From assembly GCA_964473325.1 (NCBI GenBank), contig CAYYOG010000001.1:133694-197693 (forward strand): a stretch of DNA of 64,000 bases. Direction: 5' to 3'. Of the stretch, positions 28,201 through 47,983 are shown one piece after another (positions within the stretch are counted from its first letter, which is position 1; each line of letters starts with the position of its first letter). The notes below the pieces were generated by a model that had not been told where the DNA came from, did no database searches, and worked only from the letters and a program-made list of their open reading frames with translations. Position numbers and translations under genes: made by a program. This stretch comes from an uncultured Thermotogae bacterium. Lineage in GTDB: Bacteria > Bipolaricaulota > Bipolaricaulia > RBG-16-55-9 > DRXL01.

Positions 28201-28213
28201 AAGCGGAGCTTGT

Positions 28214-28289
28214 GCGCCCGTAGCTCAGGGGATAGAGCGCTGGCCTGCGGAGCCAGAGGTCGGAGGTTCAAGTCCTCCCGGGCGTACCA
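28214..28289 (+). tRNA. tRNA-Arg (anticodon GCG as read; an unusual isoacceptor)
   Basis: Acceptor stem GCGCCCG/CGGGCGT. Anticodon stem CTGGC/GCCAG, loop CTGCGGA. Confidence 0.75.
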
Positions 28290-28298
28290 AATACCCTC

Positions 28299-31239: not shown

Positions 31240-31265
31240 CGCCCGCCATTATACCCAGTCTTGCT

Positions 31266-31706: not shown

Positions 31707-31777
31707 AGCGACCTCCTCAGATATAAGATAGGGTGAGTGTAGAAAAAGTTCCACAGAGCTGTCAAATAGTGACGCGA

Positions 31778-31806
31778 TTGACAGAGCGCAAAGCTTGGGA
31801 TAAACT
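31778..31806 (+). promoter_or_regulatory. Putative sigma70 promoter for tRNA-Ser(GGA)
   Basis: TTGACA (31778-83), a 17-nt spacer, then TAAACT (31801-06). Lies about 15 nt upstream of the tRNA 5' end. Confidence 0.45.
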
Positions 31807-31820
31807 TTTATTGACAATCT

Positions 31821-31985
<165 letters not shown>

Positions 31986-32118
31986 TCGGCTCGCTGCGGA
32001 GCGGCGGCGCAGGCCGTCAAACCCCGCCAGGCCCGGAAGGGAGCAACGGTAAGATGTCTCCTGCGGGCGCCGTTTCTGGAGCGGGCCGGCCCGAGTTGAT
32101 TTCCTAAAAGGAGGACCT

Positions 32119-33321
32119 ATGCCATCTATCAGTTGGCGAGCGAAAATCGTTCAGGCTTCGCCTATTCGGAAGCTCAAACCCCTCGCTGACCAAGCCAAAC
32201 ATGCCGGGAAGAGAGTCTATCACTTAAATATTGGGCAACCCGATATCCCTACGCCCAAAGAGTACTTTGACGGCATCCGCCAGGCTGCGCAGGGCGTTCT
32301 CGCGTACAGCCCTTCCCAAGGGCTGGAGGAAGCTCTCGACGCACTCATCGAGTACTATCGCACGTTCGACATCGCGCTCACGCGCGACGAGATGATCATC
32401 ACGACTGGTGGCAGCGAAGCGATCACGTTCGCGTTCTTAGCTGTCACGGACGTTGGCGATCAGATCTTGGTTCCTGAGCCGTACTATACGAACTATAACT
32501 CCTATGCGCAGATCACGGGGATCCAGATCGTGCCCATCGAGACAAGGGCTGAAGACGGCTTTCGCCTGCCAGAGAGAAAATCTATAGAGAGCAAGATCAC
32601 CTCTAAGACCAAAGCAATACTCTTCTGCAATCCGGGCAACCCTACGGGTGTCGTCTACACTAAAGCCGAGCTTGAAATGCTGGCGGAGATCGCACGCCAG
32701 CATAGTCTCTATCTGATCGCTGACGAAGTCTATCGCGAGTTCACATATGACGGTGCGCAAGCGATCAGCGTCCTGCAGCTTTCGGGCATAGAAGACCGTG
32801 CGATCTTGGTCGACAGCATCTCGAAGAGATTTTCCGCGTGTGGGGCGCGCATTGGCGTGATCGCCAGTAAGAATCCATCAGTGATGGAGTCGGCGCTGAA
32901 GTTCGCGCAAGCGCGGCTGTCGCCGCCGACTCTGGAACAGTACGGGCTGATCCATCTCTTGAAGTCCTCGCAGTATCGGGATTTTATACGCGAGATGATC
33001 GCGGAGTTCGCGCGGCGCAGAGACTTAGTCTACGCTGAACTGCAAAAGATGTCCGGAGTTATCTCTGTCAAGCCCCAAGGGGCGTTTTATGTGACCGCGA
33101 AGCTCCCCGTCGAGGATGCCGAGCACTTTGCGCGCTGGCTCCTGACAGACTTTGCTTTAGAGAACGAGACGGTGATGCTTGCGCCGGCAGCAGAGTTCTA
33201 CGCGACTCCGGGGAAGGGCCGCGACGAAGTGAGAATCGCGTATGTGCTCAATGTAGACGCGCTCAAGCGCGCGATGAGAGTCTTGCGTGAGGGGCTGATG
33301 AGCTACACAAAGACCCGGTGA
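32119..33321 (+). CDS. PLP-dependent aminotransferase (class I, aspartate/aromatic family)
   Basis: 400 aa. [15 protein letters not shown]-lysine region. Confidence 0.8.
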
Positions 33322-35289
33322 TCACTCGGTTTTGATCTGCCAGAGCGCCACGCCGTCGTCACCGCCGGAGGCTAGGTATTTGCCGTCTGGCGAAATAGCA
33401 AGGGCTCTGTTCTCACTGGTATGCCCTTGAAAAGAGCCAACCCACTCGTCACTTTCAAGATCCCACAGCTTGATCGTGCTCCCTTCCGCAATGGCCAAGA
33501 CCTTCTTGCTAGGGACAAAGGCTACTGCTTTATTCAAATAACGCGACTCTGCTTGATAGCTACGTACCTCCTGACCATCTGAAACTTTCCAAATCTTAAT
33601 ACCATAAGAACCATAATCGTATTCAATAGAGGCCGCAACAAGCTGGCCATCAGATGAAAAAGCCACAGCACAACCTGCTGAGCAATAGCGATTCCTAAGG
33701 AGCGTGCGCACCTCTTTGCCATCACGAGCGTTATAGAGCATCACACCGTCCCCGTTGACAGCAAGAAGCTCACTATCCGGCGAGAAGGCGATCCCTGTTC
33801 CTCGAATCCATTGAATCCATGGGACAAAGAGCTTGCTGCCATCTGAGACCTTCCAGACCTCAAGTCGATCAGCACAAACAGCTGCCAAGAGCGTTCCATC
33901 TGGTGAGAAAGCGAGCGAACGATTTATTATGGAAAAACTACAGGAGAGAGAGCGCACACGCTTTCCATCTTTGACTCGCCAGAGCGTGATGGCTTTCGTT
34001 TCAGCCACGGCCAAGAGCTGGCCGTCAGGAGAGAAGGCCAATGCATATCCCGACGTGGGCAGCATTCCCACAAGACGACCCTCAGGCATCTGCCATAGTT
34101 TCACGCCTTCCGCCGGATACGAAAACGAAGTGGCCAGCAAGGTACCATCAGGGGAGAAAGCAAGCGATTCTATTCCTTCCCAAATTGTTCTGAGAACATG
34201 AACGCCTCCAAGATTCAGCTTCAAAGACTTATCAGAGATCTGCCAGAGCTTGAGCGTTGCACCTCCTGAGGCTAAATATTTCCCGTCGGGGGAGAACACC
34301 AGGGGCATACCCGCTTGCCAATTAAGCCGCCCCAGAAACCGTCCCTCAGGACTCCAGAGCTTGATGGTCCCCCCAGAGCTTGACGCGAGCAGATCACCTT
34401 GTGGCGAAAAGAGCACGTTAGGGGGCAATTGCGCTTTGCGATGAGCAGAGATAGTCCGCACGAGACTCCCCTCAGGCAAACGCCACAACTTGATAACCCC
34501 GTCTGGAGTTGCGGACGCAAGCAGCGATCCTCCTATGGAGAGGTTAACAGGACCAAAAGCTGGTTCTTTTATCGTAAACAGCTCTGCTCCGTCGCTCACC
34601 CTCCAAACCCTAACAGTGCCACTTGTGAAGCTGCTGGAGGCTATCAGTTGCCCATCATCGGAGAACTCCACGAAATTTCTATAGCCGAGATACCCTGTAG
34701 GGATAGCCCTTTCTTGGCCAGTTTCGATCTCCCACATTTTAAGGGTGTTTTCGTATTCAAAAGCGAGCCAGCGCCCATCGGGTGAGAAGGCAGCTCTCCC
34801 ACATAAGGACTTGCACGGAAATCTCTGTACAGTCTCCCCGGTGGCGAGGCTCCAGAGTCGAATCTCTTTGCCATCATCATCTCCAGAAGCCAAAAACCGC
34901 CCATCGGGCGAAAAATCGACCCATTCGATTCGGCGCTTATGTCCTGCCAACATGCGTACCAAGCTGCCGTCTTGCGCGCGGAAGATCCCGATCACCCCAA
35001 AGCCCATTGGTACTGCTATAAACTCTCCATCGGGAGAGAACGCTGCGCTCCACGCCAAAAGCCGAGGCTTGATCCACACCGCACCGCGCAGCCAGTCCTC
35101 ACTCGCTTCTACGGGAACCGATACAGGCTGATCGAACAGATACGTGATCGGCTTGGTCTGCCGGGGCTTTTCGATCCAAACCTGTACCTGAAAGATCATA
35201 TAGATCGTGAAAAATACCAATAAAACGACAAGTCCCCAAGGCCGTCGCTTCCGTTGTTGTTCGAGCTGCATATCAATTCTCCCCTGCAC
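33322..35289 (-). CDS. Membrane-anchored WD40 repeat (beta-propeller) protein
   Basis: 655 aa. N-terminal TM helix (WGLVVLLVFFTIYMIF). More than 12 repeats of FSPDG...LAS...D..IKLW. Confidence 0.75.
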   Translation of the reverse strand: MQGRIDMQLEQQRKRRPWGLVVLLVFFTIYMIFQVQVWIEKPRQTKPITYLFDQPVSVPVEASEDWLRGAVWIKPRLLAWSAAFSPDGEFIAVPMGFGVIGIFRAQDGSLVRMLAGHKRRIEWVDFSPDGRFLASGDDDGKEIRLWSLATGETVQRFPCKSLCGRAAFSPDGRWLAFEYENTLKMWEIETGQERAIPTGYLGYRNFVEFSDDGQLIASSSFTSGTVRVWRVSDGAELFTIKEPAFGPVNLSIGGSLLASATPDGVIKLWRLPEGSLVRTISAHRKAQLPPNVLFSPQGDLLASSSGGTIKLWSPEGRFLGRLNWQAGMPLVFSPDGKYLASGGATLKLWQISDKSLKLNLGGVHVLRTIWEGIESLAFSPDGTLLATSFSYPAEGVKLWQMPEGRLVGMLPTSGYALAFSPDGQLLAVAETKAITLWRVKDGKRVRSLSCSFSIINRSLAFSPDGTLLAAVCADRLEVWKVSDGSKLFVPWIQWIRGTGIAFSPDSELLAVNGDGVMLYNARDGKEVRTLLRNRYCSAGCAVAFSSDGQLVAASIEYDYGSYGIKIWKVSDGQEVRSYQAESRYLNKAVAFVPSKKVLAIAEGSTIKLWDLESDEWVGSFQGHTSENRALAISPDGKYLASGGDDGVALWQIKTE

Positions 35290-38507: not shown

Positions 38508-39077
38508 ATGATCGAAGTGCGGTTTCACGGACGGGGCGGGCAAGGAGCCGTCGTCGCCTCGGAGATCTTAGCGACAGCCCTTTTCAAAGAGGGCAAATTT
38601 GTTCAAGCTTTTCCAGCCTTTGGGGTGGAGCGTCGCGGCGCACCCGTGATGGCCTTCTTACGCTTCGATGACACCCCTATCCGACGACGGTGCCAGATCT
38701 ACGAGCCCGATCACGTCGTCGTCCTCGACCCGACGCTCTTATTAGCCGTAGACGTCACGGCAGGGCTGAAGTCCCACGGAACTATTCTCATCAATAGTGA
38801 CTCTCCTCCAGAAAGCTTTACGGCTCTCCAAAAATTTTTAGTTGCGACCGTGCCCGCGGGGGAGATCGCCGTGGCGCATAAGCTGGGCACGCGAACAAAT
38901 CCCATCGTCAACACTGCGATCTTAGGGGCGTTCGCGCGCCTGACGGGCTTTGTCAGCTTAGAGGCACTGCTCGATGCAATTGCTGAAAAGATTCCGGAGC
39001 GCCAGCGCGAGCGCAACCAAGCCGCCGCCCGCACAGCATACGAAGCCGTGAAGATCATGGAAAGGAGCACCCTATGA
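38508..39077 (+). CDS. porG: Pyruvate/2-oxoacid:ferredoxin oxidoreductase gamma subunit
   Basis: MIEVRFHGRGGQGAVVASEILA... PorG signature. Confidence 0.9.
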   Translation: MIEVRFHGRGGQGAVVASEILATALFKEGKFVQAFPAFGVERRGAPVMAFLRFDDTPIRRRCQIYEPDHVVVLDPTLLLAVDVTAGLKSHGTILINSDSPPESFTALQKFLVATVPAGEIAVAHKLGTRTNPIVNTAILGAFARLTGFVSLEALLDAIAEKIPERQRERNQAAARTAYEAVKIMERSTL

Positions 39078-40729
39078 AAAAGCCCATCGTCTTCACCAGC
39101 GAGCAAGAGATGCCGCCCATGGCCGTCTCGCTCGCCGATATGGGGCACAACCGCACAGGGAGCTGGCGGTATCTGCGCCCGATCTATAGCGAAAAGATTG
39201 CGCCATGCAAGAATGCGTGTCCCGTGGGCAACGATATCCCGAGAATTCTCTCTTTAGTCTCCCAAGGGCGTTATGAAGACGCCTGGCGGCTCTTCCGAGA
39301 GACTTCGCCCTTGCCAGGGGTCTGCGGGAGGGTCTGTTATCACCCGTGCGAGAGCTTTTGCAACCGAAAGAACTTCGACGAAGCGCTCTCGATCGCTGCA
39401 GTAGAGCGCTTCGTCGCCGACGCGTGCTTCGATCTGGAGGACAAGATCCCAGAGCGCCCGAAGCGATCCGAGAAGATCGCGATCGTCGGCTCTGGACCAG
39501 CGGGGCTGACGTGCGCGTACTTCTTGGCCAAAGACGGCTACGCCGTGACGGTCTTCGAAGCAGCCAGCCAGCCGGGTGGGATGTTGCGCCTGGGGATTCC
39601 GGCGTATCGTCTCCCTAGAGAAGTCTTAAATCGCGAGATTGATCTCATCGCCCGCTGGGGGGTCGAGTTCCGCACCAACACGAAGATCGGGCAAGATATA
39701 TCTATCGAGAAGCTCTGGGACTCTCACGACGCCGTCTTCATCGCGACCGGGGCCCACAGCGGACGCGCTCTGAACATCCCAGGCGAAGAGTTTGCTACCC
39801 AAGGGCTTGAGTTTCTCAAAGCCGTCAATGCTGGGAAGACTGTCACTTTAGGCAAGCAGGTGCTCATCATCGGTGGTGGGAACACCGCGATGGACTGCGC
39901 CCGCACCGCGCTGAGACTTGGCGCACAGCCCATCGTCGTCTACCGCCGCACGCGTGAAGAGATGCCCGCTATTGCTGAAGAGATCGAAGAAGCCGAGCAC
40001 GAGGGGACGCGGTTTGAATTCCTCGCCGCGCCCATAGCTATTCGCAAGCTCAACGGGAAGCTTGAAGTGCAGTGTATTCGTATGAAGCTTGGTGAGCCCG
40101 ATGCGAGTGGGCGCCGCCGCCCCGTGCCTATCCCCGGCTCGGATTTCATCATGTACGCCGATACTATGCTGAAAGCCGTGGGCGAGGAGCCCGAGCTGAC
40201 GTTCTTGTCGGAGCACGTGGAGACCAGCGAGGGCATTGTGATCGAGCGTGCTCAGGGGATACTCGAGCGCGCGGGGATCTTCATCGGCGGTGACGCCCAG
40301 ACCGGTCCCAGCACCGTTACACAAGCAATGCGCTCCGGCAAAGAGACTGCTCAAGCTATCACGCGATTCTTACGCGGTGAACGAAAGCCCAAAGCAGTCA
40401 AGCTCGAAGAGGCCCTGCGCGTGAACTTCAATTACTTCACCCACACGCCCAGGGTCCCCACGCCCCAGCTTCCAGTCTCGGAGAGAACCTCGAACTTCTC
40501 GGAGACCAAGGGCGCGATCTCGGCCGAGCAAGCGCGTGCCGAAGCGAACCGTTGCTTCTCCTGTGGGGTCTGCAATAACTGCGATAACTGCTGGGTCTTC
40601 TGCCCCGATGCGGCTATCGTACGCATGAATGGCACCTATGAAGTAAACTACGATTTCTGCAAAGGCTGCGGGGTCTGCGTTGAAGAATGCCCCCGCAACG
40701 TGATCTCGCTCGTCGAGGAGGAGCTATGA
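39074..40729 (+). CDS. Fusion protein of a GltD-like NAD(P)H-binding FeS flavoprotein (N-terminal) and a PorD-type 2x[4Fe-4S] delta subunit (C-terminal)
   Basis: 551 aa. N-terminus has SPLPGVCGRVCYHPCESFC, GSGPAGL (FAD) and GGGNTAMDCAR (NAD(P)). C-terminus has CFSCGVCNNCDNCWVFCP...CKGCGVCVEECP. ATGA overlap with porG, and its stop overlaps the porA start. Confidence 0.8.
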   Translation: MKKPIVFTSEQEMPPMAVSLADMGHNRTGSWRYLRPIYSEKIAPCKNACPVGNDIPRILSLVSQGRYEDAWRLFRETSPLPGVCGRVCYHPCESFCNRKNFDEALSIAAVERFVADACFDLEDKIPERPKRSEKIAIVGSGPAGLTCAYFLAKDGYAVTVFEAASQPGGMLRLGIPAYRLPREVLNREIDLIARWGVEFRTNTKIGQDISIEKLWDSHDAVFIATGAHSGRALNIPGEEFATQGLEFLKAVNAGKTVTLGKQVLIIGGGNTAMDCARTALRLGAQPIVVYRRTREEMPAIAEEIEEAEHEGTRFEFLAAPIAIRKLNGKLEVQCIRMKLGEPDASGRRRPVPIPGSDFIMYADTMLKAVGEEPELTFLSEHVETSEGIVIERAQGILERAGIFIGGDAQTGPSTVTQAMRSGKETAQAITRFLRGERKPKAVKLEEALRVNFNYFTHTPRVPTPQLPVSERTSNFSETKGAISAEQARAEANRCFSCGVCNNCDNCWVFCPDAAIVRMNGTYEVNYDFCKGCGVCVEECPRNVISLVEEEL

Positions 40730-41898
40730 CGCCCACGCTCACGGGAACCAAGAAAGTCGTCACAGGGAATCACGCCGTCTCGTACGGAGCGATGCTCGCG
40801 CGCGTCCAAGTGATCTCAGCATATCCCATTACGCCGCAGACGCAGGTCGTTGAGCTCTTGAGCGAATTCTGCGCCAATGGGACGCTGCGCGCCAAATTCA
40901 TCAAAGTCGAGTCAGAACACTCAGCGATGGCCGCGCTCATCGGCGCAGCGAGCGCTGGAGCAAGAACGTTTACAGCGACGAGTGCCCACGGCTTGGCGCT
41001 CATGCACGAGATGCTCCACTGGGCCGCCGGAGCGAGACTGCCCATCGTGATGGCCGATATCAACCGAGCGATGGGCCCGCCGTGGTCCGTCTGGACCGAT
41101 CAGAATGACAGTCTCTCTCAGCGCGATGTCGGCTGGATGCAGATCTACTGCGAAAGCAACCAAGAAGTCTTGGACACCGTCATTCAAGCATACAAAGTCG
41201 CTGAGAGAGTCTTGATGCCCGCAATGTTGATATTAGACGCGTTCGTGCTCTCACACACCGCTGAACAGATCGAGATTCCCGATCAAGCACTCGTCGATCA
41301 GTATCTGCCGCCGTATCAGCCCATATATAAGCTGGACGTGAACGACCCGCGCTCGTTTGGGGCGCTTGCCCCACCTGATGTTTATATGGAGCTGCGCTAC
41401 AAGATGCACCAAGCGATGGAAGAAGCACTCACGGAGTGGGCCCGCGCAGACGAAGAATACTATGAGCTTTTCGGGCGACGCTATGGGCTGATCGAACCCT
41501 ATGGCGCTGACGACGCTGATCTGATCTTAGTGACGTCAGGAACAGTCACGAGCACGGCGCGGGAAGTGATCGACGCACTGCGCGCAGAGGGCCGCCGGGT
41601 CGGCTTGCTCAAGATGCGAGTCTTTAGACCATTCCCGGCTCAGCTTGTACGCGAGGCGTTAGCGAACGCTCAGAAAGTCGCGGTCCTAGACAGAAATATT
41701 AGCTTTGGGATGGGCGGAATTTTTGCTCAGGAGATCAAGTCGGCGCTCTATAACACACACGATCGCCCGCCGATCTTCGGGTTTGTCGCCGGCTTGGGTG
41801 GACGAGACATCACCCCGAAAGTTATCAGAGAGATCATCGAGTACGCTGAGAGCCATGACGAGCCAGAAGATCTGATCTGGGTGGGGGTGAAACGATGA
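40725..41898 (+). CDS. porA: Pyruvate/2-oxoacid:ferredoxin oxidoreductase alpha subunit
   Basis: MTPTLTGTKKVVTGNHAVSYGAM...YPITPQT. Confidence 0.9.
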
Positions 41899-42785
41899 GA
41901 AATTTTATGCTGCCAGATGAGGAACTGATGGGCTCTGGGCACTTGGGGTGTCAAGGGTGCGGCGGCGCTCTGGCGATGCGCTACGCTCTCAAGGCCGCAG
42001 GCAGCAACACGATCGTCGTCATTCCCGCGTGCTGCTGGACGATCATCGCTGGGCCGTTCCCGTACACGTCTTTGAAAGTCCCAGTGCTGCACACGGCGTT
42101 CGAGACGGCGGCCGTGGCAGCGTCGGGCGTACGCGCCGCGCTCGATATCCAGGGCGACACTGAGACAACCGTGCTCGCTTGGGCTGGCGACGGCGGCACG
42201 TTTGATATCGGGATACAGTCGCTCTCCGGGGCTGCTGAGCGAAACGAAAATATTATCTATATTTGTTACGACAACGAAGCGTATATGAACACGGGGATCC
42301 AGCGCAGCGGCGCCACGCCCTTCCTCGCCTGGACGACGACAACCCCAGAGAAAACCCCAAAGACCGAGCCGAAAAAAGACATCATGGCGATCATGGTCGC
42401 TCACCGTATTCCATATGCTGCCACGGCGACGATTGCCTATCCGGATGACTTCATCCGAAAAGTTCAGAAAGCCAAGAGCATCTACGGCACAAAATTTTTG
42501 CACGTGCTGGCACCGTGCCCGCCGGGTTGGAAAGCCCCCTCAGAATGGGCGATCAAGCTCTCACGATTGGCTGTCCAGACTAGGGTCTTCCCACTCTACG
42601 AAGTCGAAGATGGAAAGAGATATATATTGAACGAGCCTAAGGACAGTACAGCGCTCCCCGTGAGCGAGTATCTCAAGCTCCAAGGGCGGTTTAGCCATCT
42701 GACGGAGAAGGATATCCAAGAGATCCAGCATAGCATAGATGCGAGATGGCAGCAGCTGATGTGCCAAGTTCGTGAGTCGTCATGA
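41895..42785 (+). CDS. porB: Pyruvate/2-oxoacid:ferredoxin oxidoreductase beta subunit (TPP-binding)
   Basis: GCQGCG...GDGG...YDNEAYMNTG TPP/FeS motifs. Confidence 0.9.
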   Translation: MRNFMLPDEELMGSGHLGCQGCGGALAMRYALKAAGSNTIVVIPACCWTIIAGPFPYTSLKVPVLHTAFETAAVAASGVRAALDIQGDTETTVLAWAGDGGTFDIGIQSLSGAAERNENIIYICYDNEAYMNTGIQRSGATPFLAWTTTTPEKTPKTEPKKDIMAIMVAHRIPYAATATIAYPDDFIRKVQKAKSIYGTKFLHVLAPCPPGWKAPSEWAIKLSRLAVQTRVFPLYEVEDGKRYILNEPKDSTALPVSEYLKLQGRFSHLTEKDIQEIQHSIDARWQQLMCQVRESS

Positions 42786-45766
42786 GCGCTCAAGCGATCT
42801 TAATGTCGGGCAACGAAGCGATTGCCCGCGGGGCATGGGAGGCGGGCGCGCGTGTCGGCTGCGGCTATCCTGGTACCCCCAGCACTGAGATCTTAGAGGC
42901 CCTGGCACAATATCCCGAAGTAGATTGCGAATGGTCCACGAACGAAAAAGTCGCGCTCGAAGTCGCGGTCGGTGCAGCCCTCGCTGGCGGAAGAGCCATC
43001 GCCACGATGAAGCACGTGGGGCTGAACGTCGCCGCTGATCCGTTCTTCTCTGTCGCATATATGGGGGTCAACGCGGGCTTGGTCGTCGTCTCCGCCGACG
43101 ACCCCGGGATGCATTCGTCCCAGAACGAGCAAGATAACAGATTCTTAGCTCGTGCAGCTCGTGTTCCACTCTTAGAACCATCGACGGCACAAGAGTGCAA
43201 AGATTTCGCTCTCGCAGCGTTCGAGATCTCTGAGCGCTACGACACCCCAGTCTTGCTGAGAACTACGACGCGCATCTCTCACGGCAAGGGCTTAGTGACG
43301 CTGGGGGAGCGTCGGGAAATTCCGAGAAAACCCTATCGCAAGGACGTCCAAAAGAACGTCGTGCTCCCTGCGCACGGGCGCGCCCGACACGTCCTCATAG
43401 AGACCCAGCGCATCCCTGCTTTAGAAAAAGAAGCTGAGCGCTGGGCCCAGATCTTTGCAGGCTCCGACGACTTAGCGATCATCACGTCTGGGGCAGCGTT
43501 TCTCTACACCCGCGAAGCCTTCCCCAAGGCGACTATTTTAAAGCTGGGCATGACGCATCCCCTGCCCAGAGAACTAATCAAAAGATTCTGTGAGGGCAAG
43601 AAGCGCATAGTCGTTCTGGAAGAGCTTGAGCCCTATCTCACTGAGCAAGTGCGTGCGTTAGGGATCGCTGCGGAAGAGATTCCCCTCCCGCGTTTTGGCG
43701 AACTGTCGGTCGGGCTGGTGCGGCAGGCGGTGGAACGCGCCCGCGACGGGGCCACCCCTCCCCCCGTCACCCTCCCGCTCCTGCCGCCACGCCCACCGAT
43801 CCTGTGCGCCGGCTGCATGCACCGCGGGATCTTCTACGTGCTCAAACAATTAGAAGCTATCGTTTCAGGAGACATCGGCTGCTACACGCTCGGTGCGCTC
43901 GCCCCCCTCGACGCCATGGACACGTGCATGAACATGGGCGCGTCGCTCTCGATGGCCCACGGCATGGCCAAGATCTTCTCCGAAGAAGAACGAAAAAGAC
44001 TTGTCGCGGTCATCGGTGACTCGACGTTCTATCACTCCGGCGTCCCAGCTTTGATAGATATTCTGTATAACCGAGGTCAGACTGTTACTATTATCTTGGA
44101 CAACCACACCACGGCCATGACCGGCCATCAAGAGCACCCCGGCACCGGGCACACTATTAAGGGCGAACCCGCCCCCGTGATCGAACTTGAGTCGCTCGCC
44201 AGAGGTCTAGGGATCAAGCACGTGCAGCGCGTCGATCCTTACGATCTCTTGACAGCCTGGCGCACTATAGATACAGCTCTTCATCGCCGAGAGCCGTCGG
44301 TGATTATCGCCGACGCGCCCTGTGTGCTCAAGGAGAAGCGTCGCTTCGGCGAGATCGTCTCTGTAGATCACAAGAAGTGCACAGAGTGCTTTGCCTGCAC
44401 GGAGCTGGGCTGTCCTGCTATCGAAATTCGAGACGGGCATATTGAAATCAATAAATTGCTCTGTATCGCGTGCACGCATTGCCAACAAGTTTGCGCCGAC
44501 TGCAACGCAGGGATTGACATCCCCCAAGTCCTGGAACTTGTCCATCAGAAGCGCTACGCGGACGCATTCAGAGTCGTAATGCGCGCTAACCCCTTCCCCG
44601 CAGTGGCTGGGCGGGTCTGCCCGCACCCGTGCGATCATGAAGTGAACGCACTCGGCTGGCCTCAAGAGAGACTCTACGCCGAGCGATACCCGGATTTGGT
44701 CAAAGAATTTGCGACGCCGGGCCATCCCGCGAAGCTCTCCGTGCGCGACGTCGAGCGATTTTTGGGTGACTATGGGATCGAGAATTTTTCTGGCGCGGAG
44801 TTTGCACCCATTACAGAACGCCCAGAGAAGGTCGCTATTATCGGCTCTGGACCAGCAGGGCTGTCAGCAGCGTTCTATCTGCGGAGACGCGGCTTTCGCG
44901 TAACAGTCTTGGAAGCATTTGAAAAGCCCGGCGGTATGATGCGCTATGGCATCCCAGCATTTCGTTTAAACAAAGAGATCTTAGATCGCGAGATCGATAG
45001 ACTGTATATGATGGGCGTCGAAATTCGCTGCAATGTGACAGTAGGACGCGACGTGAGCTTCGCAGAACTCCAGAAAGAGTACGATGCAGTCGTCATCGCT
45101 GTGGGGGACTCAGCCCCACAGGAACTCGAACTTGAGGGCACCAGCGAAGTACAAGAAGGGCTGCTCTACGGTGTAGAATTTCTCCGGCGCGTCAACCGCG
45201 GACAGCTCGTGAAAGTTGGGCGCAAAGTTGCTGTCATCGGCGGAGGCAATACAGCTATAGACTGCGCGCGCTCGGCCCAGCGCCTGGGAGCGGACGTGAC
45301 AGTATACTATCGCCGCACCGCCCAAGAGATGCCCGCGATCCGCGATGAAATCGATGAAGCGATCTTAGAAGGGGTGCGCTTTGAGTTCCAGACAAACCCC
45401 ATTAGAGTCAAAGCGAAGGGCGGTCGTGTCTGCGGACTGGAGCTCATCCGGATGCAGCCAGGCCCGCTTGATAAAGACGGACGCCGTCGGCCCGTACCCA
45501 TCCCCGAGAGTGAATTTCACACCGACGTCGACACGGTGATCTTAGCCATCGGCGAGCGAGCCGATCTAGAGTTTCTTAAGGAGACAAAAGTACTATTCGC
45601 TGAGAAGATTCAGGCGACGTTCACAGGAGTAGCGTCGCAACCAGGGATCTTCGCCTGCGGGGATGTCGCATTTGGGTATGGCACCGTAACGCAGAGCATC
45701 GCAACGGGGCGGCGCGTCGCCAGCACGGTCACCGCGTATCTCCAGCGCAAAAGCACAAAAAAATGA
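42782..45766 (+). CDS. Fusion protein of an indolepyruvate:ferredoxin oxidoreductase alpha subunit (TPP and 2x[4Fe-4S] domains) and a C-terminal GltD-like NAD(P)H-binding FeS flavoprotein
   Basis: 994 aa. Residues 1 to about 600 are IorA (GYPGTPSTEILE, IGDSTFYHSG, CTECFACTELGCP, CIACTHCQQVC). Residues from about 600 to 994 are GltD-like (NPFPAVAGRVCPHPCDHE, GSGPAGL, GGGNTAIDCAR, FACGD). ATGA overlaps at both ends. Confidence 0.85.
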   Translation: MSAQAILMSGNEAIARGAWEAGARVGCGYPGTPSTEILEALAQYPEVDCEWSTNEKVALEVAVGAALAGGRAIATMKHVGLNVAADPFFSVAYMGVNAGLVVVSADDPGMHSSQNEQDNRFLARAARVPLLEPSTAQECKDFALAAFEISERYDTPVLLRTTTRISHGKGLVTLGERREIPRKPYRKDVQKNVVLPAHGRARHVLIETQRIPALEKEAERWAQIFAGSDDLAIITSGAAFLYTREAFPKATILKLGMTHPLPRELIKRFCEGKKRIVVLEELEPYLTEQVRALGIAAEEIPLPRFGELSVGLVRQAVERARDGATPPPVTLPLLPPRPPILCAGCMHRGIFYVLKQLEAIVSGDIGCYTLGALAPLDAMDTCMNMGASLSMAHGMAKIFSEEERKRLVAVIGDSTFYHSGVPALIDILYNRGQTVTIILDNHTTAMTGHQEHPGTGHTIKGEPAPVIELESLARGLGIKHVQRVDPYDLLTAWRTIDTALHRREPSVIIADAPCVLKEKRRFGEIVSVDHKKCTECFACTELGCPAIEIRDGHIEINKLLCIACTHCQQVCADCNAGIDIPQVLELVHQKRYADAFRVVMRANPFPAVAGRVCPHPCDHEVNALGWPQERLYAERYPDLVKEFATPGHPAKLSVRDVERFLGDYGIENFSGAEFAPITERPEKVAIIGSGPAGLSAAFYLRRRGFRVTVLEAFEKPGGMMRYGIPAFRLNKEILDREIDRLYMMGVEIRCNVTVGRDVSFAELQKEYDAVVIAVGDSAPQELELEGTSEVQEGLLYGVEFLRRVNRGQLVKVGRKVAVIGGGNTAIDCARSAQRLGADVTVYYRRTAQEMPAIRDEIDEAILEGVRFEFQTNPIRVKAKGGRVCGLELIRMQPGPLDKDGRRRPVPIPESEFHTDVDTVILAIGERADLEFLKETKVLFAEKIQATFTGVASQPGIFACGDVAFGYGTVTQSIATGRRVASTVTAYLQRKSTKK

Positions 45767-46374
45767 ACACATCCAGCGTTACAAATATTATCGTAGTTGG
45801 GGTAGGTGGACAGGGGTCTGTGCTCGCAGGGCAGATCATTGCGCGCGCAGCTGTACTCGCCGGGCTGTCTGTAGCGGCTTCAGAGGTGCACGGCATGGCC
45901 CAGCGCGGCGGTTCGGTCTTCTCCACCGTGCGCTACGGCAAAGACGTGCTCTCATCTGCCGTGCCCGAAGGCGCTGCCGATGTCCTGCTCGCCTTTGAAA
46001 AACTCGAAGCCCTACGCTACCTGAACCATCTCAGAGTCGACGGCTTGGCGTTAGTGAACGATCAGCGCATTGTGCCCAGTGTCGAATCGCTCAAGCTCGC
46101 GCCATATCCCGATGACAAAACTATAGAAGGGACGCTGCGCCGTCGCACAAAGTCCGTCATGATCGTGCCCGCCTTAGAAATCGCGCAAAGGCTGGGCAAT
46201 CCTGCGCTCACCAACACCGTCATGCTCGGCGCGCTCTCCCAGTTTCTCAATCTCCCTCAGGACGCATGGCGCCGCGCCGTCACTGAACTTGTCCCGCCCA
46301 AGACCGTCGAGCTCAATCTCGTAGCGTTTGACGAGGGGCTCAGCTGGGCCCAGCGCGCCTGTATCGCTCTGTAA
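45763..46374 (+). CDS. iorB: Indolepyruvate:ferredoxin oxidoreductase beta subunit
   Basis: IIVVGVGGQGSVLAGQIIA...HGMAQRGG. Confidence 0.85.
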   Translation: MNTSSVTNIIVVGVGGQGSVLAGQIIARAAVLAGLSVAASEVHGMAQRGGSVFSTVRYGKDVLSSAVPEGAADVLLAFEKLEALRYLNHLRVDGLALVNDQRIVPSVESLKLAPYPDDKTIEGTLRRRTKSVMIVPALEIAQRLGNPALTNTVMLGALSQFLNLPQDAWRRAVTELVPPKTVELNLVAFDEGLSWAQRACIAL

Positions 46375-46434
46375 CTGGACGCGAGCCCCCTAATGTGTTA
46401 TATTGAGGGACACCGTGTGAAAGGAGGCCATAGT

Positions 46435-47046
46435 ATGGCGTTTTCTTTACCGCCGTTGCCGTATCCATACGACGCTCTAGAGCCGCACATTGACCAGCTG
46501 ACGATGGAGATCCATCACACCAAGCACCACGCAGGATATGTGAACAATCTCAACAAAGCGTTGGAGTCTGCGCCAGAGTTGGCCAGCAGGTCTCTAGAGG
46601 AGCTGCTAGCCAACAATTGCGCGATTGTTCCAGAGAAGATCAAAACAGCGGTGCGCAATCACGGCGGCGGACATATCAATCATTCGTTCTTCTGGGAGAT
46701 CATGGGGCCCAATGCCGGTGGTCAGCCCTCTGGAAAGCTCGCCGAGGCGATCACACAGACTTTCGGGAGCTTCGAGAAATTCAAGGAGAGATTTACAGAA
46801 GCAGCGTTAGGGCGCTTTGGCTCCGGCTGGGCCTGGCTCGTGCTCACCCCAGAGAGAAAGCTCGAAGTCTACTCGACGGCTAACCAAGATAGCCCTCTAA
46901 TGGAAGGCAAGATCCCCATCTTAGGGATCGACGTTTGGGAGCACGCGTATTATCTCAAATATCAGAACCGCCGCGCCGACTATGTCCAGGCGTGGTGGAA
47001 CGTCGTGAACTGGGCTGCCGTCGAAAAACGCTTCACTTCCATTTGA
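46435..47046 (+). CDS. Fe/Mn superoxide dismutase
   Basis: [32 protein letters not shown]...DVWEHAYY metal ligands. AGGAGG ribosome-binding site. An extended -10 (TGTTATATT) lies upstream. Confidence 0.9.
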
Positions 47047-47572
47047 TGGTACAGCCCATGGGCTGCGTCTCTTTTAAGTCAGGCTCCCTGCCGGCGAGCA
47101 CGGCGTCCAGGGCATCTTTGAGATAGTGTTTGGTCACTTTATTGGGATCTTGATAGTTGTCATCAATCGTGCCGTGATAGCGCAGCTTCATCGCTGAGTC
47201 GAAGAGAAAGATCTCTGGGGTGCGCTGGGCGCCGTAGGCTCTCGCGATCTGTTGGGTCTCGTCGTACAGATACGGGAAGGGATAGCCCTTCTCTTTCGCT
47301 CTTTTAATCATGTTGTCGAAGCTGTCTTCAGGGTATTTCACAGGGTCATTGGAGTTGATGACGAGAAATTGCACGCCCTTGGGTTCGTACTCTTTGGCGA
47401 GCGCGATCATGCGAGCTTCATACGCCTTCACATATGGGCAATGATTGCAGCTGAAGATCACAGCGACGGCCTTTTTGTTCTTATAATCTGAGAGCTTATA
47501 GGTCTTGCCGTCGACACCTTTAAGCTGGAAGTCTGGGGCTTGGCTACCGTACTTGAGCATAGAGAAAATCAC
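47033..47572 (-). CDS. Thioredoxin-fold redoxin (AhpC/TSA/TlpA-like thiol-disulfide oxidoreductase)
   Basis: FSCNHCPY CxxC motif. Convergent with sod, with a 14-nt overlap. Confidence 0.7.
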
Positions 47573-47740
47573 CTCAATGGGGCAATTATACTCAATAGAA
47601 TCACGGAGAGCACTGAAAGGCTCACGGGTTACACGAAAACCGCTCTATTTCAGTGATTTCTGCGACTCTCTTGCGTGTGTTCCGCGATTCACAAGCTCTC
47701 CTGGACGAATGTGCTCATCATCGCTACAATTATGGCAATG

Positions 47741-47983
47741 ATGAAGCCCATAATTACGATTGAATATTGTGACGAATGTATGTATCTGAAGCCGGCCCTG
47801 GAGGCCGCGCACAAAATCCTCGAGAGCTATGCAGACAGGGTCGAAGCCGTGATGCTCAAGCCTGGACACGACGGGGTCTTCCGCGTCACCGCTCATGATG
47901 TTCTTATTATTCAGATGGGCGACGAGGGCCTGCCCAACGCCGAAAGAGTCGCTCACGCTGTCGGAGAGTTCTTAGAAACTTAA
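47741..47983 (+). CDS. Rdx/SelW-family thioredoxin-fold protein (Cys form)
   Basis: MKPIITIEYCDEC...LKPG..GVF.V.....LI architecture. Confidence 0.55.
   Translation: MKPIITIEYCDECMYLKPALEAAHKILESYADRVEAVMLKPGHDGVFRVTAHDVLIIQMGDEGLPNAERVAHAVGEFLET

What the first reader, a model, noticed from the sequence alone, without database searches (positions are those of the whole stretch)
38508..46374. Six-gene translationally coupled PFOR+IOR operon in which both enzymes carry built-in GltD-like NAD(P)H modules
The operon order is porG, GltD::PorD, porA, porB, IorA::GltD, iorB. Every junction is an ATGA start/stop overlap (39074, 40725, 41895, 42782, 45763). The ferredoxin-type delta subunit of PFOR is replaced by a GltD-like::PorD fusion, and IorA carries a C-terminal GltD-like domain. 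Both GltD-like domains keep the FeS motif (GRVCxHPCE), FAD (GSGPAGL) and NAD(P) (GGGNTAxDCAR) motifs. The architecture therefore predicts direct electron wiring from TPP/[4Fe-4S] to FeS/FAD and on to NAD(P)+. That would be a ferredoxin-independent, pyridine-nucleotide-linked 2-oxoacid oxidoreductase pair, or possibly a confurcating or bifurcating module by analogy with the GltD-like NfnB. It is a different solution from the eukaryotic PNO (PFOR fused to a CPR domain). I do not recall this combined arrangement as a characterised system.
Basis: partly seen in the sequence, partly recalled or inferred. Interest (0 to 1): 0.85.

Follow-up and report, generated by a model that had tools for sequence, protein, structure and literature searches.

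The report
NADP-linked 2-oxoacid oxidoreductase operon
A Bipolaricaulota operon encodes two amino-acid-degrading 2-oxoacid oxidoreductases that each carry a built-in NADPH-binding flavoprotein cassette, an untested variant of a design already shown in one other bacterium to pass electrons to NADP+ as well as to ferredoxin.

Summary
Six + strand genes (38508-46374) are joined by five ATGA overlaps: porG, a 551-aa delta subunit with a GltD/NfnB-like cassette, porA, porB, a 994-aa IorA-GltD fusion, and iorB.

- The cassette is inserted inside PorD, not fused to its end. It is circularly permuted, as in StnC and Bfu-type NfnA.
- The IorA-fused module lacks the ligands of its distal [4Fe-4S] cluster in all 98 homologues. 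It appears to share a cluster with IorA's own ferredoxin domain.
- The POR-type enzyme cannot be assigned to pyruvate rather than branched-chain substrates.

The most likely function is oxidative decarboxylation of amino-acid-derived 2-oxoacids, with electrons running TPP, FeS chain, FAD, NADP+, without bifurcation. Both modules lack the Arg typical of bifurcating NfnB, no nfnA is present, and the closest solved cassettes are non-bifurcating.

The design is not unprecedented. The NADP+-specific 2-oxoglutarate oxidoreductase of Azoarcus evansii has a GltD-like subunit, and an Aromatoleum homologue shows the same cassette-plus-ferredoxin layout. The delta-type family is widespread and has a curated NCBIfam model.

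Verdict: a new variant of a known kind. No activity has been measured.

The parts
38508..39077 (+). porG: gamma subunit of a four-subunit POR/VOR-type 2-oxoacid oxidoreductase (189 aa)
   Evidence: PF01558 at 5.3e-42. NF006321 scores 226.4 bits against a cutoff of 225.
39074..40729 (+). Delta subunit carrying an inserted GltD/NfnB-like NADP(H)-FAD-2x[4Fe-4S] cassette (551 aa)
   Evidence: NF009410/PRK12771 scores 569 bits against 516 over the full length. Pfam finds Fer4_20, Pyr_redox_2 and Fer4. All ligand and motif positions are invariant in 120 homologues.
39074..39205 (+). PorD N-terminal arm (residues 1-44, TGSWRYLRP motif)
   Evidence: T28, W31 and R32 are invariant in 120/120 homologues and G29 in 119/120; position 30 is variable (S 96, G 11, T 11, N 2). 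Splicing residues 1-44 onto 500-551 gives one contiguous TIGR02179 match: 90.4 bits over model positions 9-78/78. The C-terminal part alone gives 69 bits over positions 27-78.
39206..40570 (+). Inserted, circularly permuted GltD-like cassette (residues 45-499)
   Evidence: Contents: C45, C49, C88, C92, C96 and E111; FAD motif GSGPAGL; NADP motif GGGNTAMDCAR and YRR; then a segment homologous to the N-terminus of NfnB that ends in RC494xxC497. It aligns contiguously to Csac NfnA 102-576 and StnC 102-574. Residues 459-499 align to residues 7-47 of P. furiosus NfnI-L.
40571..40729 (+). PorD di-cluster ferredoxin domain (residues 500-551: C500/503/506/510-P and C529/532/535/539-P)
   Evidence: TIGR02179 and PorD_Arch match residues 498-550. 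All 8 Cys are invariant.
40726..41898 (+). porA: alpha subunit (390 aa)
   Evidence: POR_N at 6.1e-75 and PFOR_II at 5.1e-32. PorA_Arch scores 513 bits, below the equivalog cutoff of 550. The start at 40726 matches the gene call in relative L007.
41895..42785 (+). porB: TPP/[4Fe-4S] beta subunit (296 aa)
   Evidence: TPP_enzyme_C. NF008818 (VorB-type subfamily) scores 420 bits against 405. NF008819 (PorB) scores 390.5 against 405.
42782..44356 (+). IorA catalytic core (residues 1-525), with TPP-proximal cluster ligands C342, C345, C367 and C514
   Evidence: TIGR03336 scores 676.9 bits against 650.9 over residues 7-572. The four Cys are invariant in 98 homologues.
44357..44500 (+). IorA di-cluster ferredoxin domain (C533/536/539/544-P and C561/564/567/571). 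Its second motif also serves as the first Cys motif of the GltD module.
   Evidence: HMMER aligns C561, C564, C571 and C574 to P. furiosus NfnI-L C42, C45, C52 and C56. Plain IorA ends a few residues after the equivalent of C571.
44501..45766 (+). C-terminal GltD-like FAD/NADP(H) module of IorA (residues 574-994)
   Evidence: It keeps only the FAD-proximal cluster ligands (C574, C613, C617, E658). Pyr_redox_2 scores 1.3e-36 and Fer4_20 matches only in part, at 37 bits. The position of the distal ligand (P. furiosus C111) is V/T/I/F in 98 homologues and never Cys. It is 43% identical to the cassette of the 551-aa protein.
45763..46374 (+). iorB: IOR beta subunit (203 aa)
   Evidence: PF01558 at 8.7e-43. 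The best NCBIfam hits are IorB models, all below equivalog cutoffs (216.8 bits against 237).

Best explanation
The operon encodes two catabolic 2-oxoacid oxidoreductases of an amino-acid-degrading Bipolaricaulota bacterium. One is a four-subunit POR/VOR-type enzyme. The other is an indolepyruvate/arylpyruvate-type IOR.

**Proposed mechanism.** In both enzymes the ferredoxin-like domain that normally ends the internal electron wire is joined covalently to a GltD/NfnB-like cassette.
1. The 2-oxoacid is decarboxylated on TPP and the acyl group goes to CoA.
2. The two electrons leave one at a time through the [4Fe-4S] chain.
   - POR-type: one cluster in PorB, two in the PorD domain, two in the cassette.
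   - IOR: one TPP-proximal cluster, two in the IorA ferredoxin domain of which one doubles as the cassette's missing distal cluster, and one FAD-proximal cluster.
3. The electrons are collected on FAD and leave as a hydride to NADP+.

The cassette therefore acts as a built-in, non-bifurcating ferredoxin:NADP+ oxidoreductase. Ferredoxin may remain a second acceptor.

**Shown here:** gene order, domain composition, ligand and motif conservation, insertion topology, homology to NADPH-binding cassettes, and genomic context.

**Inferred:** cofactor occupancy, direction of electron flow, NADP rather than NAD specificity, substrates, and whether the cluster is really shared in IorA.
For: **Architecture and conservation.**
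- Searches give the domain architecture.
- In the delta type, 7 Cys + Glu for two cassette clusters, 8 PorD Cys, both GxGxxG motifs and YRR are invariant or nearly so in 120 homologues.
- In the IorA type, 4 + 8 + 3 Cys + Glu are conserved in 98 homologues.

**Insertion topology.**
- A contiguous alignment to StnC and Csac NfnA includes the displaced NfnB N-terminal segment.
- The splice test reconstitutes a full PorD match.

**Merged motif in IorA.**

**Closest solved homologues.** These are 9bov_A (408 bits), 9n5u_A and 8oh5_C. In them the FAD takes a hydride from NADPH and feeds FeS clusters one electron at a time, without bifurcating.

**Markers of bifurcating NfnB are absent.**
- Ile sits at the Arg333 position. 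No Arg appears among the residues tallied for that position, which cover 112 of the 120 delta-type and 94 of the 98 IorA-type homologues. Arg occurs in 2 of the 127 cluster representatives where the motif could be read.
- No nfnA is in the window.
- The criteria come from Huang et al. 2025.
- Stand-alone NfnB-like proteins work as simple Fd:NADP+ oxidoreductases.

**Precedent.**
- KGOR-alpha of A. evansii is listed as a GltD-like lineage.
- The Aromatoleum EbN1 homologue (32% identical, with the same EA.RCxxC + di-cluster tail) is translationally coupled to korA/korB-like genes.

**Independent recurrence of cassette-to-OFOR fusions.**
- PorG-fused forms, and an insertion-type IorA in Dehalococcoidaceae and Myxococcota.

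**Catabolic context.**
- An aminotransferase lies upstream.
- Relatives carry gdh, ADP-forming acyl-CoA synthetase and ack/pta next to the modules.
- pntAB is in the window.
Against: - No activity, cofactor content or structure is known for either fusion type.
- The proximal-cluster ligand is Glu, as in bifurcating NfnB (and in non-bifurcating GltS). It is not Lys as in StnC and Csac NfnA.
- NADP rather than NAD specificity rests only on the YRR motif. The Aromatoleum KGOR-like protein lacks YRR, although I recall the A. evansii enzyme as NADP-specific.
- The cluster-sharing model for IorA is inferred from Cys patterns alone.
- True PRK12771 members in Alphaproteobacteria sit next to nifJ and a DHODH-like gene. 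Family membership alone therefore does not prove an OFOR partner.
- The details of the A. evansii enzyme come from my memory of Ebenau-Jehle et al. 2003. That paper is not in the held library.
Confidence: 0.7

Rival explanations
1. Flavin-based electron bifurcation or confurcation. The cassette FAD would behave like the b-FAD of NfnB and couple NADP(H) to the low-potential OFOR chain and to a further, high-potential partner.
For: - The cassettes are clearly NfnB-like: TmNfnB scores 322 and 250 bits, and P. furiosus NfnI-L 306 and 241 bits.
- They keep the Glu ligand of the proximal cluster and the Arg201 equivalent (GIPAYRLP and GIPAFRLN).
Against: - The Arg333 equivalent is Ile in both modules, and no Arg appears among the residues tallied for that position in either family.
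- No nfnA or other [2Fe-2S]/flavin partner lies in the operon or the window.
- The closest solved cassettes are non-bifurcating.
- The canonical N-terminus of NfnB is displaced or replaced.
- Oxidising a 2-oxoacid with NADP+ is exergonic and needs no coupling.
Confidence: 0.07
2. Anabolic 2-oxoacid synthases driven by NADPH. The enzymes would reductively carboxylate acyl-CoA for amino-acid or pyruvate synthesis in an organism that uses the Wood-Ljungdahl pathway.
For: - Some relatives encode CODH/ACS a few kb away (L094).
- OFORs are reversible in principle.
- GltS and DPD cassettes normally pass electrons from NADPH into FeS chains.
Against: - By established redox potentials, NADPH (about -320 mV) is roughly 180 mV too positive for acyl-CoA + CO2 reduction (about -500 mV) without energy coupling.
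- The context is catabolic: aminotransferase, gdh, ADP-forming acyl-CoA synthetase, ack/pta and acyl-CoA dehydrogenases.
Confidence: 0.08
3. The cassette has a protective or regulatory role. It would use NADPH to keep oxygen-sensitive OFOR clusters reduced, or to dispose of stray electrons, in a microaerotolerant organism. NADP+ would not be the main catabolic acceptor.
For: - SOD, an AhpC/TSA-type peroxiredoxin and an Rdx protein follow the operon directly.
- In WOR-3 the four-gene module is followed by thioredoxin, a peroxiredoxin and OsmC.
- A microaerophilic WOR-3 isolate carries a 750-aa 'SudA-like' protein of matching size.
- The window also encodes 2-oxoacid dehydrogenase E1 genes.
Against: - Gene neighbourhood is weak evidence.
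- I recall the characterised A. evansii KGOR as using NADP+ as a bulk acceptor.
- Strict conservation of the complete wire in anaerobe-type lineages (Syntrophobacterales, Dehalococcoidia) fits a core metabolic role.
Confidence: 0.08
4. The 551-aa protein is not an OFOR subunit. It would be an independent NAD(P)H:FeS oxidoreductase that merely lies in the operon, like PRK12771 proteins next to nifJ and DHODH-like genes.
For: - True PRK12771 members (742 bits) on Phenylobacterium and Methylovirgula plasmids flank nifJ and a DHODH-like gene.
- The cassette is found fused to many partners.
Against: - It occupies the porD slot between porG and porA, with ATGA overlaps on both sides, and no other porD is in the operon.
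- It carries the PorD arm, which the alphaproteobacterial proteins lack.
- The splice test gives a full PorD match.
- The porG-X-porA-porB order is conserved across phyla, and PorG-fused versions exist.
Confidence: 0.03

Closest known systems
NADP+-specific 2-oxoglutarate oxidoreductase (KGOR) of Azoarcus evansii (Ebenau-Jehle, Boll & Fuchs 2003) and its Aromatoleum aromaticum EbN1 plasmid homologue
   Same: - An OFOR core is combined with a GltD-like FAD/FeS/NADPH component.
- The EbN1 homologue has the same permuted cassette, ending in EA.RCxxC and followed by two ferredoxin motifs. It is 32% identical over residues 36-540, and PRK12771 is its best NCBIfam hit.
- It is translationally coupled to the OFOR genes.
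- I recall that biochemistry showed FAD and NADP+-specific reduction.
   Different: - The core is KorAB-type, with a fused alpha-gamma subunit and a beta subunit, and is specific for 2-oxoglutarate.
- The flavoprotein is a separate subunit without the PorD arm.
- Here the cassette lies inside the delta subunit of a POR/VOR-type enzyme and is fused onto IorA.
GltD/NfnL-like domain of StnC (S. ovata, 8OH5) and of NfnA in Bfu-type NfnABC (C. saccharolyticus 9BOV; 9N5U)
   Same: - These are the best solved matches (408, 395 and 358 bits).
- They have the same circular permutation, and the cassette is inserted into an FeS protein.
- The FAD accepts a hydride from NADPH and passes single electrons to [4Fe-4S] clusters without bifurcating.
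   Different: - The host protein is NuoG/Fdh-like and feeds a separate bifurcating module.
- The proximal cluster has a Lys ligand there and a Glu ligand here.
- Net electron flow here is predicted to run in the opposite direction, from FeS to NADP+.
NfnB of the bifurcating NfnAB transhydrogenase (4YLF, 5JCA)
   Same: - Fer4_20 + FAD/NADPH fold.
- 7 Cys + Glu ligand set (in the 551-aa protein).
- The Arg201 equivalent and the YRR motif.
   Different: - There is no NfnA partner.
- The Arg333 equivalent is Ile.
- The N-terminal segment is displaced (delta type) or replaced by IorA's ferredoxin motif.
Cac_0764-type monofunctional ferredoxin:NADP+ oxidoreductases (Huang et al. 2025)
   Same: These are NfnB-like proteins with two [4Fe-4S] clusters + FAD that simply link low-potential one-electron carriers to NADP+. 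They have no nfnA and no conserved Arg333.
   Different: They are stand-alone proteins that use free ferredoxin. Here the 'ferredoxin' is the covalently attached PorD or IorA domain.
Pyruvate:NADP+ oxidoreductase (PNO) of Euglena and Cryptosporidium
   Same: The predicted net reaction is the same: 2-oxoacid + CoA + NADP+ gives acyl-CoA + CO2 + NADPH.
   Different: PNO fuses a single-chain PFOR to a cytochrome-P450-reductase-type FMN/FAD module. No flavodoxin or FNR-type domain is found here.
NADH-dependent phenylglyoxylate dehydrogenase PadEFGHI
   Same: It has a four-subunit archaeal-type OFOR core plus an extra flavoprotein for pyridine-nucleotide reduction. The window's G, D, A and B proteins hit the PadE, PadF, PadG and PadI models below their cutoffs.
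   Different: - The flavoprotein PadH is a separate subunit.
- No PadH model appears among the 25 best NCBIfam hits, whereas 14 GltD-type models do. PadH is therefore at best a distant relative.
- The acceptor is NAD+.

Membership tests
Four-subunit POR/VOR-type 2-oxoacid:acceptor oxidoreductase (PorGDAB) | Gamma (PF01558), alpha (POR_N + PFOR_II) and beta (TPP_enzyme_C with Cys for one [4Fe-4S]) subunits encoded together | tested here: met
- NF006321 scores 226.4 bits against 225, and NF008818 scores 420 against 405.
- PorB carries C19, C22, C47 and C207 (sequence).
Four-subunit POR/VOR-type 2-oxoacid:acceptor oxidoreductase (PorGDAB) | Delta subunit: PorD arm plus two CxxCxxCxxxCP motifs | tested here: met
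   - TIGR02179 scores 64.1 bits against 60.05 on the whole protein.
- It scores 90.4 bits over model positions 9-78/78 once the insert is spliced out.
- All 8 Cys, and T, W and R of the TGxWR arm, are invariant.
Pyruvate-specific PFOR (PorA/PorB equivalogs) | Scores above the PorA and PorB equivalog cutoffs; pyruvate as substrate | tested here: not met
   - PorA_Arch scores 513 bits against 550, and PorB (NF008819) 390.5 against 405.
- A VorB-type subfamily model scores higher.
- Substrate cannot be tested with these tools.
Indolepyruvate:ferredoxin oxidoreductase (IorAB) | IorA equivalog match that includes its di-cluster domain; adjacent IorB | tested here: met
   - TIGR03336 scores 676.9 bits against 650.9 over residues 7-572.
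- IorB has PF01558, but its IorB equivalog scores fall below cutoff (216.8 against 237; 184.7 against 205.8).
GltD-like FeS flavoprotein module (Fer4_20 + Pyr_redox_2) | Two [4Fe-4S] clusters (7 Cys + Glu/Gln), FAD GxGxxG, and an NAD(P)H Rossmann fold | tested here: met
   This applies to the 551-aa protein. C494, C497, C45, C49, C88, C92, C96 and E111 are all invariant, as are GSGPAGL, GGGNTAMDCAR and YRR.
GltD-like FeS flavoprotein module (Fer4_20 + Pyr_redox_2) | The same features in the IorA-fused module | tested here: inconclusive
   - The FAD and NADP motifs and the proximal cluster ligands are present (C574, C613, C617, E658).
- The distal-cluster fourth ligand is absent in all 98 homologues, and the first Cys motif is IorA's own.
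- Whether a cluster is shared cannot be shown without a structure.
NCBIfam NF009410 (PRK12771, 'NAD(P)-binding protein') | Full-length score above the curated cutoff of 516 bits | tested here: met
   It scores 569 bits, with residues 25-549 aligned to model positions 30-565/566.
Bifurcating NfnB (NfnAB/NfnSL) | nfnA gene immediately upstream | tested here: not met
   porG or porB lies upstream. No PyrK/NfnA-type protein was found among the window ORFs scanned.
Bifurcating NfnB (NfnAB/NfnSL) | Conserved Arg333 (P. furiosus NfnI-L numbering) near the FAD, and an extended native N-terminus | tested here: not met
   - Ile occupies that position in both modules (I300 and I853).
- No Arg appears among the tallied residues at this position in either family.
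- The N-terminal segment is displaced or replaced.
A. evansii-type NADP+-specific KGOR | A GltD-like cassette + di-cluster protein encoded with, and coupled to, OFOR core genes | tested here: met
   The EbN1 homologue has the same layout and is 32% identical over residues 36-540.
A. evansii-type NADP+-specific KGOR | KorAB-type two-subunit core and 2-oxoglutarate specificity | tested here: not met
   The cores here are POR/VOR-type four-subunit and IOR-type.
A. evansii-type NADP+-specific KGOR | Measured NADP+ reduction and bound FAD | not testable with these tools
   This requires enzyme purification and assay.
Eukaryote-type PNO (PFOR-CPR fusion) | C-terminal flavodoxin + FNR-like NADPH-cytochrome P450 reductase module | tested here: not met
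   No such Pfam domains occur in any of the six proteins.

The most novel reading that the evidence does not exclude
The cassette FAD, which keeps the NfnB-type Glu-ligated low-potential cluster, might still bifurcate or confurcate. The enzymes would then be three-way hubs linking 2-oxoacid/acyl-CoA, NADP(H) and free ferredoxin or another acceptor. One example would be NADPH-driven 2-oxoacid synthesis paid for by a second, exergonic electron path. That would be a new class of bifurcating OFOR.
Probability: 0.07. Interest if true: 0.8.

Novelty: new variant of a known kind. Interest (0 to 1): 0.45.

Why it matters
- **Metabolic models.** If the prediction holds, many 'pyruvate/indolepyruvate ferredoxin oxidoreductases' annotated in uncultured phyla actually deliver electrons to NADP+. 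The lineages include Bipolaricaulota, WOR-3, Longimicrobiales, Dehalococcoidia and Syntrophobacterales. That would change reconstructed energy and redox budgets: less reduced ferredoxin for hydrogenases, Rnf or the Wood-Ljungdahl pathway, and more NADPH.
- **Protein evolution.** The same insertable NADPH cassette has been grafted at least three different ways onto the ferredoxin domains of OFORs.
- **Applications.** The two enzymes are candidates for ferredoxin-free acyl-CoA/NADPH-generating biocatalysts.
- **Limits.** This is not a new principle. A. evansii KGOR and the GltD-like adaptor concept are established.

Tried and rejected
- **Literature.** Ten full-text searches found no paper describing a GltD-inserted PorD or an IorA-GltD fusion. 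One search was wasted because 'PadH' matched unrelated words. Andersson & Roger 2002 and Ebenau-Jehle 2003 are not in the held library, so details of the A. evansii enzyme rest on memory plus the mention.
- **Genome scan.** It returned mostly plain IorA and no Bipolaricaulota. It still revealed full-length fusions in Longimicrobiales, Dehalococcoidaceae and Myxococcota, but it is not a census.
- **Taxonomy.** The listing of cluster members gave no taxonomic information.
- **PadH.** I could not test whether PadH is GltD-like. No sequence was available, and the NCBIfam output lists only the best 25 families.
- **Structure prediction.** I did not run AlphaFold or fold searches. Model coordinates are not returned, so inter-cluster distances, the one decisive structural quantity, could not be measured. 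Sequence alignments to solved structures already fix the topology.
- **Operon boundaries.** The promoter/terminator scan gave nothing above background for the operon. Promoter-like sites numbered 4 against 3.9 expected. A promoter-like site and an RBS precede sod.
- **Horizontal transfer.** I considered a horizontally acquired island and dropped the idea. GC is 0.57-0.585 across the operon against 0.51-0.60 in the window, and synteny with relatives extends to both flanks.

Full report
**1. The observation**

The region 38508-46374 holds six + strand ORFs.
- 38508-39077: 189 aa.
- 39074-40729: 551 aa.
- 40726-41898: 390 aa.
- 41895-42785: 296 aa.
- 42782-45766: 994 aa.
- 45763-46374: 203 aa.

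Each junction reads ATGA, so every start codon overlaps the preceding stop by four bases. The ORF lister's earlier in-frame ATG at 40687 is not used by gene calls in relatives. The same five overlaps occur in a relative that is 86-91% identical (L007).

Four-base overlaps are the commonest form of translational coupling in multi-subunit enzyme operons. This feature is real but ordinary.

Base composition across the operon (0.57-0.585 GC) does not stand out from the window.

**2. Domain content** (Pfam; NCBIfam)

- Genes 1, 3 and 4 are the gamma, alpha and beta subunits of a four-subunit archaeal-type OFOR.
- Gene 6 is an IorB.
- Gene 5 is a complete IorA (TIGR03336, 676.9 bits against a cutoff of 650.9, residues 7-572). 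A partial Fer4_20 and a full Pyr_redox_2 domain follow it.
- Gene 2 has Fer4_20 + Pyr_redox_2 and ends in a PorD-type di-cluster domain (TIGR02179, 64.1 bits against 60.05). Over its full length it belongs to the curated family NF009410/PRK12771 (569 bits against 516), whose only name is 'NAD(P)-binding protein'.

The POR-type enzyme cannot be assigned to pyruvate. The beta subunit passes a VorB-type subfamily model (420 bits against 405), while the PorA and PorB equivalogs are missed (513 against 550; 390.5 against 405).

Best named homologues place the organism in Candidatus Bipolaricaulota/Acetothermia.

**3. Anatomy of the 551-aa protein: an insertion, not an end-to-end fusion**

- Residues 1-44 carry the PorD N-terminal arm (TGSWRYLRP).
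- Residues 45-499 are the GltD/NfnB-like cassette.
- Residues 500-551 are the PorD di-cluster domain.

The cassette is circularly permuted relative to NfnB.
- It opens at the equivalents of P. furiosus NfnI-L Cys52 and Cys56 (C45, C49).
- It runs through the second Cys motif (C88, C92, C96), the Glu ligand (E111) and the FAD and NADP folds.
- It then has a segment (residues 459-499) that aligns to the N-terminal residues 7-47 of NfnI-L. That segment ends in RC494xxC497, equivalent to Cys42 and Cys45.
- The PorD motif C500xxC503xxC506xxxC510P starts three residues later.

The same contiguous, permuted arrangement aligns to residues 102-576 of C. saccharolyticus NfnA (9BOV) and 102-574 of S. ovata StnC (8OH5).

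A direct test supports the insertion model. Splicing residues 1-44 onto 500-551 gives one uninterrupted TIGR02179 match of 90.4 bits over model positions 9-78/78. The C-terminal part alone gives 69 bits over positions 27-78.

In an alignment of 120 homologues (47-100% identity), the following are invariant or nearly so:
- T, W and R of the TGxWR arm;
- all seven cassette Cys and the Glu;
- all eight PorD Cys;
- both glycine motifs and YRR.

**4. Anatomy of the 994-aa protein: an append with a merged FeS motif**

Plain IorA ends a few residues after its second ferredoxin motif, CxxCxxCxxxC. Here that motif, C561IAC564THC567QQVC571, continues directly as ADC574NAGIDIP.

HMMER aligns C561, C564, C571 and C574 to NfnI-L C42, C45, C52 and C56. 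The second Fer4_20 motif is AVAGRVC613PHPC617DHEV. The residue at the position of the distal-cluster ligand Cys111 is V/T/I/F in all 98 homologues and never Cys. C574, C613, C617 and E658 (the proximal cluster) and the twelve IorA Cys are essentially invariant.

From this I infer that the module keeps only its FAD-proximal cluster. It would use a cluster of IorA's own ferredoxin domain in place of its distal one.

That gives four [4Fe-4S] clusters in IorA-GltD and five in PorB + delta. It is a reading of Cys patterns, not a structural result.

The two cassettes are 43% identical over 430 residues. PRK12771 is also the best GltD-type NCBIfam match for the IorA-fused module, so the two are related versions of one cassette.

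**5. What the cassette does elsewhere**

The best solved matches for both proteins are as follows.
- First: Csac NfnA (9bov_A, 408 and 272 bits), 9n5u_A 'NfnA' (395 and 309 bits) and StnC (358 and 231 bits).
- Then: NfnB of T. maritima and P. furiosus.
- Then: GltD.

In StnC the GltD-like domain (aa 102-565) is described as an NADPH-binding module inserted in a NuoG-like protein, and its FAD 'lost the ability to bifurcate'. In Csac NfnABC the NfnL-like domain FAD takes a hydride from NADPH and relays single electrons through clusters A7-A6-... to a separate bifurcation site.

Huang et al. 2025 characterised stand-alone NfnB-like proteins as simple ferredoxin:NADP+ oxidoreductases. They give three discriminators for true bifurcating NfnB: a long native N-terminus, conserved Arg333, and an upstream nfnA. 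The window proteins fail all three.
- Both modules have Ile at the Arg333 position. No Arg appears among the tallied residues at that position in either family. Arg occurs in 2 of the 127 diverse cluster representatives where the motif could be read.
- The N-terminal segment is displaced or replaced.
- No nfnA is present.

The one NfnB-like trait retained is the Glu ligand, where StnC and Csac NfnA have Lys. Non-bifurcating GltS also has Glu.

**6. Distribution and synteny**

The delta-type protein is common.
- The word-indexed search saturated, and all of the best 120 90%-identity clusters are homologues down to 47% identity. Of these, 119 fall between 520 and 800 aa. Named sources include Bipolaricaulota, Syntrophobacterales, Deltaproteobacteria and WOR-3.
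- Of the best 150 representatives of 50%-identity clusters, 49 carry both the strict PorD arm and the di-cluster tail. A further 58 carry the tail without that strict arm motif. One 712-aa representative scanned with Pfam carries an N-terminal PorG domain.

The four-gene unit porG - delta(cassette) - porA - porB stands alone in more distant Bipolaricaulota, in WOR-3 and, without an adjacent porG, in a Syntrophobacterales genome.

IorA-GltD + IorB stands alone in Longimicrobiales. A different solution occurs in Dehalococcoidaceae and Myxococcota. There the permuted cassette is inserted upstream of IorA's ferredoxin domain, giving proteins of about 1130-1160 aa.

The cassette is also found fused to NuoF-like, DHODH-like and polyferredoxin partners.

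The six-gene juxtaposition appears in the window and in close relatives (L007, L008). In a 64%-identical relative the two units are separated by a glutamate dehydrogenase gene (L094). A 71% relative pairs IorA-GltD with a plain porDABG (L093).

The 'combined arrangement' is therefore a lineage-specific juxtaposition of two independent modules.

**7. Precedent**

[quoted passage not shown] 2003.

That paper is not in the held library. From memory, it describes a three-subunit, FAD-containing, NADP+-specific enzyme. One subunit of about 62 kDa was proposed to hold FAD, [4Fe-4S] clusters and the NADPH site. The enzyme could also reduce ferredoxin.

A tblastn search of plasmids gave a testable stand-in on Aromatoleum aromaticum EbN1 plasmid 2.
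- A 595-aa 'FAD-dependent oxidoreductase' overlaps the start of a 622-aa KorA-type gene, and a 351-aa KorB-type gene follows.
- It is 32% identical to the window protein over residues 36-540.
- It ends with the same EA.RCxxC + two ferredoxin motifs, and PRK12771 is its best NCBIfam hit (389 bits, below cutoff).
- It lacks the PorD arm.

The design principle has therefore been characterised once, on a different OFOR subfamily and as a separate subunit.

I found no description of the delta-inserted or IorA-fused forms. A 2025 paper on a WOR-3 isolate reads a 750-aa protein as 'SudA-like' for sulfur reduction. Its size matches the PorG-cassette-PorD fusions.

**8. Context and likely physiology**

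Genes in the window:
- an aminotransferase upstream (32119-33321);
- pntA/pntB transhydrogenase (10483-13303);
- two acyl-CoA dehydrogenases;
- a carboxyltransferase with a Na+-decarboxylase beta subunit;
- 2-oxoacid dehydrogenase E1 genes.

Relatives place gdh, ADP-forming acyl-CoA synthetase, ack/pta or an aminotransferase beside the modules.

This matches the classical peptide-fermentation scheme: transamination, 2-oxoacid oxidation by POR/VOR/IOR, then ATP from the acyl-CoA. The difference is that NADP+ is the acceptor.

Thermodynamics (about -500 mV against about -320 mV) favours the oxidative direction. It argues against NADPH-driven 2-oxoacid synthesis.

SOD, a peroxiredoxin and an Rdx protein follow the operon. 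Thioredoxin, peroxiredoxin and OsmC follow the WOR-3 unit. A link to oxygen exposure or NADPH-dependent antioxidant supply is possible but untested.

**9. Verdict**

- NADP(H) wiring is the best reading (about 0.7).
- Bifurcation is unlikely (about 0.07).
- 'Uncharacterised arrangement' overstates the novelty.

This is a new variant of a known kind. It is a widespread, generically annotated and biochemically untested way of building an NADP-linked OFOR. Two features may interest enzymologists: the domain insertion in PorD and the apparent cluster sharing in IorA.

Noticed in passing
window 10483-13303 (+): The window carries pntA (AlaDh_PNT_N/C, 369 aa) and pntB (PNTB, 464 aa), a membrane proton-translocating NAD(P) transhydrogenase. 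A small gap between them could hold the PntA membrane part. This is relevant to how NADPH made by the OFORs might be re-oxidised.
   Followed up: partly
window 46393-47983: Fe/Mn superoxide dismutase (+), an AhpC/TSA-type peroxiredoxin (47033-47572, -) and an Rdx-family protein (47675-47983, +) lie directly downstream of iorB. sod has its own RBS and a promoter-like site. In WOR-3 locus L005 the four-gene module is followed by thioredoxin, a peroxiredoxin and OsmC.
   Followed up: partly
window 25231-25400 (-) and 21890-25303 (-): A Moco/tungsten riboswitch (RF01055, 65.6 bits) sits upstream of a Peripla_BP_2 binding protein, a FecCD-like permease, an ABC ATPase and a small NTPase. This is probably a molybdate- or tungstate-related uptake operon.
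   Followed up: partly
window 13410-20474: This stretch is an acyl-CoA catabolism cluster: two acyl-CoA dehydrogenases, a carboxyltransferase (16080-17663) and a Na+-translocating decarboxylase beta subunit (18105-19229). It suggests a sodium-pumping methylmalonyl- or glutaconyl-CoA decarboxylase.
   Followed up: no
window 60147-63414 (+): There is a 2-oxoacid dehydrogenase E1 alpha gene followed by two tandem E1 beta-like genes (Transket_pyr + Transketolase_C). The organism therefore also has an NAD-linked, oxygen-compatible 2-oxoacid dehydrogenase system.
   Followed up: no
window 21783-31910 and 31990-32088: Six tRNA genes (four Ser, two Arg) are scattered over 10 kb, and an SRP RNA is present. 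The mechanical ORFs 21773-22729 and the N-terminal part of the MscL ORF (31266-31961) overlap tRNA genes and are probably spurious or over-extended.
   Followed up: no
L012 643-4038 and L025 9932-13414: Dehalococcoidaceae and Myxococcota MAGs encode a longer IorA (1131 and 1160 aa). In it the permuted GltD cassette, ending in EA.RCLSC, is inserted upstream of IorA's ferredoxin domain. This is a third, independent way of joining the cassette to an OFOR.
   Followed up: partly
L089 5956-12245 and L091 5926-12252: Plasmids of the aerobic Alphaproteobacteria Phenylobacterium zucineum HLK1 and Methylovirgula sp. HY1 share a triad: a PRK12771 'NAD(P)-binding protein', nifJ (single-chain PFOR) and a 'dihydroorotate dehydrogenase-like protein'. 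The cassette protein there lacks the TGSWR arm. Its partner, PFOR or the DHODH-like protein, is unclear.
   Followed up: partly
PMC12285271 (WOR-3 isolate sy37, protein SYKM_11010): The paper interprets a 750-aa protein as a SudA-like sulfide dehydrogenase. Its length matches the PorG-cassette-PorD triple fusions seen here (P0072, P0111, P0268 and others), so it may be a misread OFOR delta/gamma subunit.
   Followed up: no
window 33322-35289 (-) and 633-1172 (-): A 655-aa WD40/beta-propeller repeat protein is conserved in position in relatives (L007, L008). A HEPN-domain protein lies at the window start.
   Followed up: no
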